39,822 nt of DNA from Candidatus Zapsychrus exili (lineage in GTDB: Bacteria; Omnitrophota; Gorgyraeia; Zapsychrales; Zapsychraceae): the NCBI GenBank assembly GCA_030765585.1, contig JAVCCJ010000057.1:1-39822 (forward strand), given 5' to 3'. A program made the position numbers and the translations under genes. The notes below the pieces were generated by a model that saw nothing but the letters and a program-made list of their open reading frames with translations, made no database searches and was not told the origin of the DNA. Positions 2,349 to 12,217 of the stretch are shown here, piece after piece; positions within the stretch are counted from its first letter, which is position 1, and every line of letters begins with the position of its first letter.

Positions 2349-3079
2349 TTTTTTATCCTAAACCCCAGTAAAAATACTGGTCTTAATATACTCCACCATC
2401 CGACGAAAGGCTTCATCTTTGTATAGCCTAATTCCTTAGGTGGGTAAAATTTTGTAACAGCCGCTTCCTTGTACTTATAGCCTAAAGCAATTGCTTTATA
2501 AATAAGATATGGTTCTAACTCATACTTATCAAGCCATGGCTGCTCTATGTCTATGTTATCATTATCAAAAATTGAAAGCCTAATAGCCCTAAACCCATTT
2601 GTTGTATCTGTAAGTTTTCTTCCCGCAAATAAAGACATCATTGCCGGATGCAACCTAGTTGCTATCTTTCTATAAAAAGGAATATTTCTTCCTGTGCCTT
2701 TTTCTGACTTATAGCGAGAACCTTGAACAAAATCACAACCATCATTTAAAATAGGATCTATAAGCTGCGAAATCTCATCAGGATTATCTTTATCATTTCC
2801 TGCCATAATTACTAAAACTTCGTAACCTTTTTCTTTTGCATACCTGATAGCTGTCTTAATAGCAGCCCCGACACCACTTCTTTTTTCATGCTTTATTGTG
2901 GTTACGCCTTGTTTAAGATAGCTTTCTATCACTTCTGTCGTGCCATCGTCCGACGCGTCATCAATTACCAAATAATCAACCACATCTCTTGATTTGCTTT
3001 TTAGAAATCTTTCAATAACATTTTTTAACTTAACATTTTCATTAAAAGCAACTGGACAAACTAGAACCTTATTCATCAA
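2345..3079 (-). CDS. GT2 glycosyltransferase (polyprenol-phosphate sugar synthase-like)
   Basis: PVAFNE, IDDASDDGT, GVGAA, VQGSRY, DTTNGFRA. Confidence 0.88.
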   Translation of the reverse strand: MMNKVLVCPVAFNENVKLKNVIERFLKSKSRDVVDYLVIDDASDDGTTEVIESYLKQGVTTIKHEKRSGVGAAIKTAIRYAKEKGYEVLVIMAGNDKDNPDEISQLIDPILNDGCDFVQGSRYKSEKGTGRNIPFYRKIATRLHPAMMSLFAGRKLTDTTNGFRAIRLSIFDNDNIDIEQPWLDKYELEPYLIYKAIALGYKYKEAAVTKFYPPKELGYTKMKPFVGWWSILRPVFLLGFRIKK

Positions 3080-3626
3080 TTTCTAACCCTTTTTCTTGTC
3101 TTTTATATTTTTTCTTACACTTGCAAGTCAAATTATCATCTAGTTTTCCGCCACAAAGACAAGCATATCCCTTAAACTTCGCAGGATTTCCAAATACTAA
3201 AGAATATGGCTCAACATCTTTTGTAACAACACTACCTGCGCCGACAAAAGCATGCTCCCCTACTGTTAATCCACAAAGCACAACAGCATTAGCACCTAAG
3301 CTTGCGCCTTCTTTTATTATTGTTTTCTCTAGTTTCCATCCATCTTCAAAATGACTACGAGGGTATCTGTCATTAATAAACGCTATGTTCGATCCTATAA
3401 AGGCGCTATCCTCAATCACTACTCCGTCAAAAATAGACACATTGTGTTTTATAGTTACTTTGTTACCCACAACAGCACCTTTTTCAACAAAAGATCCATC
3501 ACAAATATTACAATCCTCTCCTATAATAGCACCTGATTGTATATGCGTATTAGCCCACACTCTTGTGCCTTTACCTATTTGTGCTCCATCATCTACCAAT
3601 GCTTTTTCATGTTTAAAATAATCCAT
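3069..3626 (-). CDS. Hexapeptide-repeat N-acetyltransferase (WbpD/WlbB-like)
   Basis: Left-handed beta-helix repeats, FINDRYPRS, VFGNPA, C-terminal CLCG...CKC. Confidence 0.88.
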   Translation of the reverse strand: MDYFKHEKALVDDGAQIGKGTRVWANTHIQSGAIIGEDCNICDGSFVEKGAVVGNKVTIKHNVSIFDGVVIEDSAFIGSNIAFINDRYPRSHFEDGWKLEKTIIKEGASLGANAVVLCGLTVGEHAFVGAGSVVTKDVEPYSLVFGNPAKFKGYACLCGGKLDDNLTCKCKKKYKRQEKGLEIDE

Positions 3627-3694
3627 ACACTTCCCTTTATAATAAAAAATTTAATAATATATCTTAAATCTACATCCAAATTAAAATATATTTA

Positions 3695-3723
3695 TTGACA
3701 ACTATGAGTTTATAGGGTATCCT
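3695..3723 (+). promoter_or_regulatory. Sigma70-like promoter, antisense to the surrounding operon
   Basis: TTGACA (3695-3700), 17-bp spacer, TATCCT (3718-3723). Confidence 0.6.
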
Positions 3724-3729
3724 TTAAAT

Positions 3730-3788
3730 ATCACGATGGGCAGGCATGCTAAAGGTTCGTCCTTTAGATACTCTTGCCCTATTTTTTT
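3730..3788 (+). ncRNA. Candidate ~60-nt structured small RNA convergent with the NYN gene
   Basis: Starts ATCACG about 6 nt after the -10 box. Outer stem GGGCAGG/CTTGCCC, inner stem CTAAAGG-TTCGT-CCTTTAG, then a T7 tract overlapping the NYN stop codon. Confidence 0.45.
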
Positions 3789-4281
3789 ACCTTTTTCCTA
3801 TCTTTCTTTCCAATTCATTAATATATAAAAAATATTTCCTATACTTTCTTAAAAGAGATGAATATTTCCTAGGATTAGGAATAAGCACATGACCCAATTT
3901 CTTTTTCTCTTCAAGATATTCAATTAAACAATAAAAATCACCATCACCAGATACTATCATTGCCTTATTATAGTCATCAAAGTGAATCATTGAATGCAAC
4001 ACTAATTCTGCATCAACATTTCCCTTTCTAAAAATTTTCCCATCTTTTTTAATTTCTAATGTTGGTTTAAAAATAACAATATACCCTGCCATCTGCAAAT
4101 ATGTATACAAAGATTCGTTTCCTGCCATGTATCCAATAAACAAAAACGCTTTTTTAATCTTATATTTATCTTTTAAATAAATATAAAAACGCTTAAAATC
4201 CAATGTCCATCCGCAGCCCTTAATGCCTAAATTAAGATTTTGACTATCTATAAAAACATAAGTATTATTTGTTTTATCCAT
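3787..4281 (-). CDS. NYN-domain (LabA/DUF88, PIN-like) putative ribonuclease
   Basis: VFIDSQNL, KGNVDAEL and SGDGDF acidic catalytic motifs. Confidence 0.9.
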   Translation of the reverse strand: MDKTNNTYVFIDSQNLNLGIKGCGWTLDFKRFYIYLKDKYKIKKAFLFIGYMAGNESLYTYLQMAGYIVIFKPTLEIKKDGKIFRKGNVDAELVLHSMIHFDDYNKAMIVSGDGDFYCLIEYLEEKKKLGHVLIPNPRKYSSLLRKYRKYFLYINELERKIGKR

Positions 4282-4292
4282 TTTCTATTTCC

Positions 4293-5306
4293 TTATAAAT
4301 CTACACAAACACCTTTATTTTCTATAGATTGCTGTATGGCACAAAGTGTCTTAACAACATCGGCTCCTTTTTGTGCATCTGATAAATCTGGGCTATCTCC
4401 ATTTTCAACACAATCGATAAAATACTTAGCCTGCGCTTTTAAAGGTTCATTAAAACCTATGTTAGGTATTGTAATGCTTCCCTCTTTTGATAGAAGTTGA
4501 AATTCGCCATATGTTTCGTAAAAAGTAGCTGTTCTCTCGGCATATTTATCATAAAGTTTGATAGGTCCGATATTGTCTAAATCATCCCATACAAGCATCT
4601 TCTTCTCACCTACAATTGTTATTTGCCTTACTTTCTTTGGATCAAGCCAACTTACGTGAATGTTAGCAAGTAAATTGTCAGGATATTCAAGTGTTGCAAA
4701 AGCTACATCCTCTAATGAATTCCCTAAACACTTCTGCCCGCGAGCTGACACATTTATAGGAGAATTATCAAATAGATAATTAAATATTGAAATATCATGC
4801 GGAGCTAAATCCCACAGTGCGTTTACATCATAACGGAATGGACCTAAATTTGTTCTAATAGCATAAGCTGAATGAATTTTTCCCAATTCACCTGACTCAA
4901 TATATTTCTTAATCCAAGTAATACCAGCATTAAAAACAAATATGTGACCGACCATAAGTACTTTGTTTTTTTCTTTAGCTAATTTATTAAGAACATGACA
5001 CTCATCCGAATCAAGAGTCAAAGGCTTCTCGCACAAAACATGCTTACCAGCCTCTAATGCTTCTTTAGTCAGTTTAAAATGTATATTTGTTGGAGCTGCG
5101 ATACAAACAGCATCTATATCAGCGTTATTTAAAATATCTTTATAATCAGTTGTTGCTATGATTTCAGGAAATATCCCCTTAATAATCGCAAGACGCTTTT
5201 CATCTAAGTCTGCGCACATCAAAGACTCTGAATTAGATAATTGAGAAAAAATTCTTACATGATTCGGTCCCCAATGGCCACATCCAATAATACCTACGTT
5301 AATCAA
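4293..5306 (-). CDS. Gfo/Idh/MocA oxidoreductase (WbpB/WlbA-like sugar-nucleotide dehydrogenase)
   Basis: GIIGCGHWG, CEKP, MVGH, WDLAPHD; TTG start. Confidence 0.9.
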   Translation of the reverse strand: MINVGIIGCGHWGPNHVRIFSQLSNSESLMCADLDEKRLAIIKGIFPEIIATTDYKDILNNADIDAVCIAAPTNIHFKLTKEALEAGKHVLCEKPLTLDSDECHVLNKLAKEKNKVLMVGHIFVFNAGITWIKKYIESGELGKIHSAYAIRTNLGPFRYDVNALWDLAPHDISIFNYLFDNSPINVSARGQKCLGNSLEDVAFATLEYPDNLLANIHVSWLDPKKVRQITIVGEKKMLVWDDLDNIGPIKLYDKYAERTATFYETYGEFQLLSKEGSITIPNIGFNEPLKAQAKYFIDCVENGDSPDLSDAQKGADVVKTLCAIQQSIENKGVCVDL

Positions 5307-7427: not shown

Positions 7428-7904
7428 TTATTTAGGTCTTTCTATCTTTAAAACTTTATACTTCAAAGAACCTGCTGGACCATCAATTTCTATTTCTTCG
7501 CCTTTTGCGTGGCCCATCAAGCCTGCGCCAACAGGAGACCTCATAGATAACTTATTCTCCTCATGACTTGCTTCCTCAGGAGACACCATCATATACTTAA
7601 GCTTTTCATCAGTCTTTAAATCTTTTAGAGTTACAATTGCTCCAATATAGATTTTATCTGATGGAATATCTTGATCCTCAATAATAACCACACTACCTAA
7701 ATTATTTTCTGCTTCAGCTATTTGATAAACATTATGAGCTTGTGCTTCTTTTGCAGCATCGTATTCTGCATTCTCAGAAATATCGCCTTGCAGTCTTGCC
7801 TCTTCGATTGCTCTTGATATCTTAATGCGATCTTTTCTAAGCTTTTCTAACTCATCACTTAACTTTTTATAACCAGCTCTTGTTAAATAAACTTCATCAG
7901 CCAT
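7428..7904 (-). CDS. greA: Transcription elongation factor GreA
   Basis: YLTRAGY, GDISENAEYDAAKE, SPVGAGLMG. Confidence 0.95.
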   Translation of the reverse strand: MADEVYLTRAGYKKLSDELEKLRKDRIKISRAIEEARLQGDISENAEYDAAKEAQAHNVYQIAEAENNLGSVVIIEDQDIPSDKIYIGAIVTLKDLKTDEKLKYMMVSPEEASHEENKLSMRSPVGAGLMGHAKGEEIEIDGPAGSLKYKVLKIERPK

Positions 7905-11728: not shown

Positions 11729-12217
11729 CTATTCATCCAACCAAATTCGTTCTAATTCAGAATTGATTTTAAACTCTACTTCCTTAGATATATTCTTTGA
11801 CTTCTCTTTATTGTTTTGAACTTTCCCTCTATCTTTAGATAAACTTTTGTTACTTCTCAAAAACTCGCTTACTTTCATTACTTTTGCACCAAGCGCGCTA
11901 ACATAATGTTGAATATCTCTATCATCTGTAACAACTACAATATTTTTCTTAAGACTTGACTCTTCTACTATTTTCTTTATCTTGTCATCTGCAGATATGC
12001 TAGACGGAAACACGACCTGAATATCTGTTTCTCTTCTGCTGCTAATACCACTCTTGCCATCAAAAATAATAGTTACATTATTTCTTGTGCTACCGCAAGG
12101 GCGTTTTGTTCTTATAAAATTAACTAAATTATTTCTCTGATCTTCAAGGCTATCTTTCGCAGAAAAATGCATTTGATTAGTTATATTATATCCGTCTAGA
12201 AGAAATTGTAGTGACAC
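11729..12217 (-). CDS. YacP/Rae1-like NYN (PIN) domain protein
   Basis: LLDGYN, IFDG, SADD and VVTDDR motifs; GTG start. Confidence 0.82.
   Translation of the reverse strand: MSLQFLLDGYNITNQMHFSAKDSLEDQRNNLVNFIRTKRPCGSTRNNVTIIFDGKSGISSRRETDIQVVFPSSISADDKIKKIVEESSLKKNIVVVTDDRDIQHYVSALGAKVMKVSEFLRSNKSLSKDRGKVQNNKEKSKNISKEVEFKINSELERIWLDE

What the first reader, a model, noticed from the sequence alone, without database searches (positions are those of the whole stretch)
3690..4281. NYN RNase gene paired with a convergent, separately promoted small structured RNA: candidate RNA-antitoxin or defence cassette
Seen: an intact NYN/PIN nuclease gene sits between a WbpB-like oxidoreductase and a WbpD-like acetyltransferase, where it has no obvious pathway role. 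Directly behind it, on the opposite strand, is a complete mini transcription unit: TTGACA-17-TATCCT, a start near ATCACG (3730), a two-stem hairpin (GGGCAGG/CTTGCCC outside, CTAAAGG-TTCGT-CCTTTAG inside) and a T7 tract reaching the NYN stop codon. The U-tract is on the wrong side to terminate the NYN mRNA, and no ORF lies in the unit. Known: RNase toxins neutralised by cognate small RNAs exist (type III TA such as ToxIN). Inference: this ~600-bp unit is a portable nuclease plus RNA module in which the RNA is antitoxin, substrate or partner.
Basis: partly seen in the sequence, partly recalled or inferred. Interest (0 to 1): 0.75.

Follow-up and report, generated by a model that had tools for sequence, protein, structure and literature searches.

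The report
NYN nuclease with partner small RNA
A gene for a predicted RNA-cutting enzyme sits tail to tail with a conserved, hairpin-forming small-RNA gene that matches no catalogued RNA family; the pair recurs in many uncultured bacteria, and the RNA likely keeps the enzyme in check, which would make it an undescribed RNA-antitoxin module.

Summary
Observation confirmed, and it is far from chance. Behind 96 of 97 other close NYN homologs with enough flank lies the same opposite-strand unit: sigma-70-type promoter, AUCACGA start, bulged hairpin, U tract. The outer stem covaries (39 compensatory branch events against at most 11 in 265 control pairings). The motif persists where it lies outside the reading frame. 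There is no Rfam match. RNA variants track protein subclades, and distant NYNs carry other convergent units. In this genome the pair is a ~630-bp insert, absent at this site in 23 relatives. Orphan RNAs, some with NYN remnants, occur. Against an obligatory antitoxin: three lineages (28 of 186 proteins, enriched sample) keep the catalytic residues without the RNA. Transcription, binding, toxicity and defence are untested; no RNA run was listed. Best reading: an RNA-restrained nuclease cassette that works like type III toxin-antitoxin but fails that family's layout tests; antisense control and a cofactor role remain rivals. Ten literature searches found no description. This scan noted an NYN-sRNA module before on other DNA (e1-849017, e1-4474043).

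The parts
3787..4281 (-). NYN (LabA/DUF88-type, PIN-like) predicted ribonuclease gene, 164 aa, acidic active-site residues D12, D90, D113, D115 intact
   Evidence: ORF; PF01936 E 2.6e-14; PDB 2QIP by sequence (E 3e-11) and fold (TM 0.70); residues
3695..3723 (+). Predicted sigma-70-type promoter of the small RNA (TTGACA-17-TATCCT)
   Evidence: same position in homologs: 63 of 87 distinct loci score at least 10 of 12, against 0.4% of shuffles
3730..3788 (+). Predicted ~59-nt small RNA: single-stranded 5' tail (3730-3737), outer stem, internal loop, inner stem with UUCGU loop, U tract
   Evidence: fold; alignment of 88 copies; pair counts; tree-aware covariation; no Rfam match
3782..3788 (+). 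T7 tract after the hairpin (predicted intrinsic terminator), overlapping the NYN stop codon
   Evidence: sequence; T-rich tract conserved in alignment
3665..3674 (.). 10-nt direct repeat, copy beyond the RNA promoter (possible cassette boundary; weak on its own)
   Evidence: family D5; family-wide enrichment of such repeats
4296..4305 (.). 10-nt direct repeat, copy formed by the last coding bases of the Gfo/Idh/MocA gene, 631 nt from the other copy

Best explanation
This is a ~630-bp two-gene cassette, inserted into a sugar-modification operon, in which a predicted NYN ribonuclease is paired with a conserved small-RNA gene on the opposite strand, and the RNA likely binds and restrains the nuclease as an antitoxin. 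Shown by sequence comparison: the cassette, the intact active site, the conserved promoter-RNA-U-tract unit, the covarying stems and the insertion. Inferred: the RNA is made in excess from its own strong promoter, while the nuclease gene mostly lacks a consensus promoter and is read from host transcripts. Inferred: the protein recognises the conserved unpaired parts (5' tail, apical loop) on a hairpin scaffold. Inferred: loss of the RNA, after cassette loss or a transcription shut-off such as phage infection, would free the nuclease to cut cellular RNA. Pairing with the 3' end of the NYN mRNA may add a second layer of control.
For: Motif behind 96 of 97 other close homologs with enough flank. 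A motif-blind promoter+hairpin+U detector fires on the antisense strand of 127 of 142 NYN loci, on the sense strand of 2 of 142, and behind 23 of 500 ordinary ORFs of this genome. Unpaired A1, U2, A4 and A7 are invariant in 88 of 88 RNAs. Tail and loop stay conserved in the 50 copies that lie outside the ORF; a cis-antisense RNA would not need this (inference). Promoter of at least 10/12 before the RNA in 64 of 86 loci, before the NYN gene in 7 of 86. RNA subtypes cluster on the protein tree (co-inheritance alone also gives this). Patchy spread: 12 of 61 related genomes, and absent at this site in 23 of 23 relatives. Orphan RNAs: 3 of 15 model hits in relatives and 4 of 27 in a second sample, at least two with an NYN 3' remnant. 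A related NYN is a sequence-nonspecific ssRNase (bioRxiv 2024.04.08.588522, abstract and passages).
Against: RNA-less lineages keep all five active-site residues checked: 4 of 132 loci before enrichment, and 28 of 186 distinct proteins in three lineages after two searches centred on them. So the family can live without an adjacent RNA. The strictly convergent, often ORF-overlapping layout (33 of 83 copies overlap the ORF) fits antisense control as well. My candidate RNA-binding residue (K39) failed on the larger set. There is no match to a described defence model beyond weak NYN-type hits, only 2 loci in viral contigs and none in GenBank phages. Nothing here shows transcription, binding or toxicity.
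Confidence: 0.5

Rival explanations
1. The RNA is a cis-antisense antitoxin (type I-like, as SR4/bsrG): it pairs with the 3' end of the NYN mRNA and triggers its decay, without binding the protein.
For: The layout is convergent in every RNA-bearing locus examined, including distant clades. The RNA overlaps the ORF end in 33 of 83 copies. The gene strand has no U tract after the hairpin, so the mRNA should run through the RNA gene (sequence). A 5' tail, bulged stem and often a YUNR-like loop resemble antisense RNAs; SR4 pairs with the 3' end of its toxin mRNA and promotes RNase III-dependent decay (PMC3834814, passages).
Against: Complementarity is automatic in cis, so it does not explain invariant unpaired bases across 88 copies. 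The overlap is only about 60 nt and mostly self-paired. In this window cleavage would cut a host operon mRNA. Type I toxins are usually small hydrophobic proteins (PMC6563280, search listing).
Confidence: 0.2
2. The RNA is a cofactor, dedicated substrate or specificity subunit of a non-toxic NYN ribonucleoprotein with some processing or regulatory job; it is not an antitoxin.
For: RNA-less relatives with intact active sites exist, so the fold need not be toxic. A CRISPR-linked NYN is proposed to trim crRNAs (bioRxiv 2024.04.08.588522, abstract). DUF3800 genes have 11 different partner RNAs of unknown role (PMC5737381, passages).
Against: There is no variable guide-like segment; the RNA is short and mostly stem. 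Patchy spread, orphan RNAs and the promoter imbalance fit addiction modules better than housekeeping.
Confidence: 0.22
3. The element is not a functional RNA but a DNA-level cassette end (recombination or mobility site), or merely a terminator and barrier against convergent transcription.
For: Exact duplication of promoter+RNA around a small ORF in G011, stacked copies at several loci, and orphans behind unrelated genes in G007. Direct repeats flank some cassettes.
Against: A consensus promoter is fixed about 6 nt before the motif (48 of 87). G-U pairs favour the promoter strand 49 to 23, and that strand folds better in 55 of 88 copies against 31. The flanking repeats lie outside the promoter, not in the hairpin.
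Confidence: 0.08

Closest known systems
Type III toxin-antitoxin systems ToxIN, CptIN, TenpIN (PMC5086642, passages)
   Same: Endoribonuclease gene paired with a cognate small RNA gene; RNA variants follow protein subgroups; RNA predicted in excess.
   Different: The RNA is single-copy, downstream, on the opposite strand and has its own promoter. There are no tandem repeats and no supported pseudoknot. The nuclease has the NYN/PIN-like fold.
AbiF with abiF-motif ncRNA (RCd22/AbiFCd; PMC12373285, abstract and first part of Discussion)
   Same: RNase gene tied to a short conserved RNA motif; there the RNA neutralises the protein by direct binding and also acts in cis.
   Different: AbiF is a HEPN RNase and its RNA lies upstream in the same transcript. 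Here the nuclease is NYN and the unit is convergent. There is no match to any Rfam family.
Type I antitoxin SR4/bsrG of Bacillus subtilis (PMC3834814, passages)
   Same: Small RNA complementary to the 3' end of the partner mRNA.
   Different: The partner here is a 164-aa enzyme, not a 38-aa hydrophobic peptide. The RNA is about 60 nt, not about 180 nt, and its unpaired bases are conserved across distant hosts.
DUF3800-I to -XI RNA motifs (PMC5737381, passages)
   Same: One protein family associated with several unrelated small structured RNAs, often terminator-ended, function unknown.
   Different: Different protein family. [quoted passage not shown]
NYN proteins VPA0982 (PDB 2QIP), MARF1-NYN (5YAA) and CRISPR-associated B. 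fragilis NYN
   Same: Fold and catalytic aspartates.
   Different: No partner small-RNA gene appears in what I read of them. This clade is only about 22% identical to 2QIP.

Membership tests
NYN domain ribonuclease (PF01936) | Profile match above the curated cut-off | tested here: met
   54.4 bits against cut-off 24.2
NYN domain ribonuclease (PF01936) | PIN-like fold with conserved acidic active-site residues | tested here: met
   Model pLDDT 84; best match 2QIP, TM 0.70. D12, D90 and D113 align with the aspartates given as D14, D92 and D115 for VPA0982 (a 3-residue numbering offset is inferred).
NYN domain ribonuclease (PF01936) | Metal-dependent RNA cleavage | not testable with these tools
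   Needs an assay
Type III TA (ToxIN/CptIN/TenpIN) | Antitoxin made of tandem repeats | tested here: not met
   Single hairpin unit; no tandem repeat in 3560-4400; a second copy at only a few loci
Type III TA (ToxIN/CptIN/TenpIN) | Antitoxin upstream in one operon, terminator before the toxin gene | tested here: not met
   Unit is downstream and antisense: 127 of 142 antisense, 2 of 142 sense in the downstream flank
Type III TA (ToxIN/CptIN/TenpIN) | Pseudoknotted antitoxin | tested here: not met
   Tail-loop pairing is possible in 89% of cells but has no two-sided change and 0 compensatory branch events; it is lost in other subclades. Only this one candidate pseudoknot was tested.
Type III TA (ToxIN/CptIN/TenpIN) | Toxic RNase neutralised by direct RNA binding | not testable with these tools
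   Indirect hints only; RNA-less relatives argue for caution
AbiF/abiF-motif system | HEPN RNase (Abi_2/AbiD/F) and abiF RNA motif | tested here: not met
   Pfam gives NYN only; no Rfam match
Type I TA, 3'-overlap kind | Antisense RNA complementary to the 3' end of the toxin mRNA | tested here: inconclusive
   The layout allows it in all loci, but the mRNA end is unknown
Type I TA, 3'-overlap kind | Toxin is usually a small hydrophobic protein | tested here: not met
   164-aa basic enzyme, pI about 9.5

The most novel reading that the evidence does not exclude
A widespread, undescribed class of RNA-antitoxin systems built on the NYN/PIN fold: a free-standing ~60-nt hairpin RNA from a convergent promoter plugs a nonspecific RNase, and each nuclease subclade has its own RNA. 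It is common in Patescibacteria-type and other uncultured bacteria, where it may serve as a compact abortive-infection or addiction module.
Probability: 0.45. Interest if true: 0.85.

Novelty: new variant of a known kind. Interest (0 to 1): 0.74.

Why it matters
RNA antitoxins that bind their toxin are known for few nuclease families (ToxIN, CptIN, TenpIN, AbiF). A PIN-like NYN enzyme with a cognate RNA would add a new fold and a new gene layout. It would give a testable role to a very large unannotated protein family: 8000 of 8000 scored candidates were significant hits, and 22 of 151 sampled genomes of one phylum carry the RNA under a strict model. It also supplies a new RNA family with strong covariation. 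The whole unit is about 630 bp and can be tested directly in a laboratory strain. If the RNA proves to be a cofactor rather than an inhibitor, that would be still more unusual.

Tried and rejected
Expression: no RNA holder was listed for window 3000-5000; this is no evidence either way, and read laying was not used. Known RNA family: no Rfam match at 3690-3800 down to E 10, and none for the unit in 12 other loci at the gathering threshold. Pseudoknot or dimer through 5' ACGA and loop UCGU: rejected as unsupported. Conservation as a by-product of coding overlap: rejected, as it holds in the 50 non-overlapping copies. K39 as an RNA-binding marker: it looked perfect on 126 versus 4 proteins and failed on the enlarged RNA-less set. 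Dispersed repeat in this genome: rejected, single copy of both gene and RNA. Role in the sugar pathway: rejected, absent at this site in 23 of 23 relatives. Defence-library membership: only weak PADLOC NYN and HEC-09 hits and no NCBIfam family. Plasmids hold only ~27% identical NYNs; GenBank phages none. A maximum-likelihood tree did not finish, so the trees are FastTree only and no clade or transfer test was run. No protein-complex job was sent, since the open partner is RNA. The supplement of PMC5737381 could not be read; it lists 224 motifs and may bear on the novelty claim.

Full report
1. Observation. The NYN ORF runs 4281..3787 on the - strand (164 aa; PF01936 at 54.4 bits, cut-off 24.2), 11 nt after the stop of a Gfo/Idh/MocA gene and upstream of a hexapeptide acetyltransferase gene. 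On the + strand lie TTGACA (3695-3700), TATCCT (3718-3723), ATCACGAT (3730), a two-stem hairpin (3738-3779) and T7 (3782-3788), which overlaps the NYN stop codon. The hairpin folds at -20.5 kcal/mol, z -4.16, with 0 of 200 shuffles as good. The promoter match alone is not above local chance (19 found, 14.3 expected). There is no Rfam match. Gene and RNA are single-copy in the 2.04-Mb assembly.

2. The protein. The predicted structure (pLDDT 84) matches NYN proteins 2QIP (TM 0.70) and MARF1-NYN; 2QIP is also the only sequence match in the PDB. D12, D90, D113 and D115 are each present in at least 135 of 136 homologs scoring over 100 bits. By the alignment, three of them correspond to the aspartates that the B. 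fragilis NYN preprint names as conserved (passages; numbering offset inferred). That enzyme is a sequence-nonspecific, Mn-dependent ssRNase (abstract). The family is very large (8000 of 8000 scored candidates significant), with named members in Patescibacteria and Ca. Scalindua.

3. The RNA gene is conserved. I collected loci from three collections and related genomes. Of 100 loci with at least 50% identity, the window among them, an automatic filter found the motif in 96. Of the four misses, L001 plainly has it, two end 37-41 nt after the gene, and L081 keeps only the 3' half. That gives 96 of 97 other loci with enough flank. Among 87 distinct copies with full upstream DNA, 63 have a promoter of at least 10/12 against 0.4% of shuffles, with 6 nt between the -10 box and the motif in 48. 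In the 88-copy alignment A1, U2, A4 and A7 are invariant. All 7 outer-stem pairs show two-sided changes, and the register beats every slid control. On the protein tree of 81 of these loci, six outer-stem pairs give 39 same-branch compensatory events against a mean of 3.6 and a maximum of 11 in all 265 mismatched pairings. Conservation is as high in the 50 copies outside the ORF as in the 33 that overlap it. G-U pairs favour the promoter strand 49 to 23. Kin are not independent, so the counts overstate the number of events.

4. The layout extends to distant relatives. A motif-blind detector (promoter, hairpin, T tract) fired on the antisense strand of 127 of 142 loci scoring 55 bits or more, on the sense strand of 2 of 142, on 2 of 10 weaker-scoring loci, and behind 23 of 500 ORFs of this genome. 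Distant subclades carry their own RNAs, several with a similar pyrimidine-CG loop. RNA subtypes, labelled partly by eye, cluster on a FastTree tree of 152 proteins (39 changes against 101.8 shuffled). This shows co-inheritance, not binding, and some subtype swaps occur.

5. It is an insert. Close NYN genes occur in 11 of 61 related genomes (12 with one weak hit). At the orthologous site none of 23 relatives has NYN. The Gfo-acetyltransferase gap is at most 78 nt in 19 of the 22 where both were seen, against 669 nt here. A 10-nt direct repeat 631 nt apart brackets the unit. That is weak alone, but repeats of 14 nt or more flank 6 of 74 cassettes against 0.07% of cross-locus pairs (the null ignores genome composition). 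GC falls to about 27-29% against about 35% in the acetyltransferase-side genes. The window protein groups with metagenome and other-phylum sequences rather than with same-order homologs; no transfer test was run.

6. Asymmetry and exceptions. A covariance model gave 15 hits in 13 of 61 relatives: 11 directly behind the 11 close NYN genes, one exact duplicate and three orphans. In 151 genomes of the phylum of G061 it gave 27 hits in 22 genomes: 22 adjacent to NYN, one tandem copy and four orphans. Only part of the candidates per genome was scored, so weak copies are missed. One orphan keeps an NYN 3' remnant by profile (E 5e-5) and another by eye, as expected if the nuclease is lost first. Against this, 4 of 132 loci scoring 100 bits or more had no unit despite intact active sites. 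Two searches centred on them (55 new loci examined) raised this to 28 of 186 distinct proteins in three lineages of 22, 5 and 1. Many have longer basic C-terminal tails, and their neighbours vary. So the RNA is not obligatory for the family.

7. Mechanism. I commit to an RNA-restrained nuclease cassette with direct binding (0.5). The reasons are the invariant unpaired bases, an RNA promoter far stronger by consensus than any before the gene (64 against 7 of 86), patchy spread and orphan RNAs. Rivals are a cofactor or substrate role (0.22), cis-antisense control (0.2) and a DNA-level or terminator role (0.08). Transcription, binding, toxicity and defence are all untested; no RNA run was listed.

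8. Comparison with known systems. [quoted passage not shown] It is not AbiF, which is HEPN with an upstream RNA (PMC12373285, abstract and Discussion part 1). It shares the 3' overlap with SR4/bsrG (PMC3834814, passages) and the many-RNAs-per-family pattern with DUF3800 motifs (PMC5737381, passages; NYN, LabA and COG1432 do not occur in its main text; supplement unreadable).

9. Novelty. Ten searches of the open library (listings only, except the five papers above) showed no description of an NYN gene with a convergent small RNA. Most subscription papers are not covered. Earlier notes of this scan mention an NYN-sRNA module on other DNA (e1-849017, e1-4474043, e1-4763170); they are unchecked AI notes and I count them as no evidence. 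Verdict: a real, conserved, uncatalogued nuclease-RNA module, a new variant of a known kind if the antitoxin reading holds. Interest 0.74.

Noticed in passing
L115 (G007:C21:44000-56000), RNA copies at 4324-4394 and 7823-7892: Two orphan copies of the RNA lie behind unrelated genes (Y1-transposase-like and DUF3800-like by recall, untested) in an island where genes are preceded by a shared short repeat; it looks like a cassette array that strands old RNA genes.
   Followed up: partly
L117 (G011:C40), 4053-4122 and 4387-4456: An exact ~100-bp direct duplication of promoter plus RNA flanks a small ORF (ribbon-helix-helix-like by recall, untested).
   Followed up: partly
L133, L145, L147, L151, L217, L220, L249, L258, L263: Two RNA units stacked behind one NYN gene, sometimes of different subtypes; they may be relics of successive cassette replacement or extra antitoxins.
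   Followed up: no
L142, L144, L218, L219, L222-L240; L138, L139, L255, L256, L262: RNA-less NYN lineages with intact active sites and longer basic C-terminal tails; they are useful natural controls.
   Followed up: partly
L173, L175, L178, L179, L163, L164, L166, L176, L021: Distant NYN clades carry different convergent promoter-hairpin-U units, each a candidate further RNA family.
   Followed up: partly
L192 (G006:C40), between the Gfo/Idh/MocA and acetyltransferase genes: The same site holds another insert, a 179-aa and a 65-aa ORF (nucleotidyltransferase-like pair by recall, untested); two more relatives have 243 and 386 nt gaps, so the site takes inserts repeatedly.
   Followed up: no
alignment A1, C termini: In many homologs the ORF reads into the complement of the RNA, which gives a shared short C-terminal peptide that is a by-product of the RNA sequence.
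   Followed up: partly
window 11729-12217 (-): A second, unrelated NYN-type gene (YacP-like, PF05991) lies about 7.5 kb away.
   Followed up: no
L161:37-272: A group I intron match (RF00028, 73 bits) upstream of an NYN gene in a small-genome bacterium.
   Followed up: no
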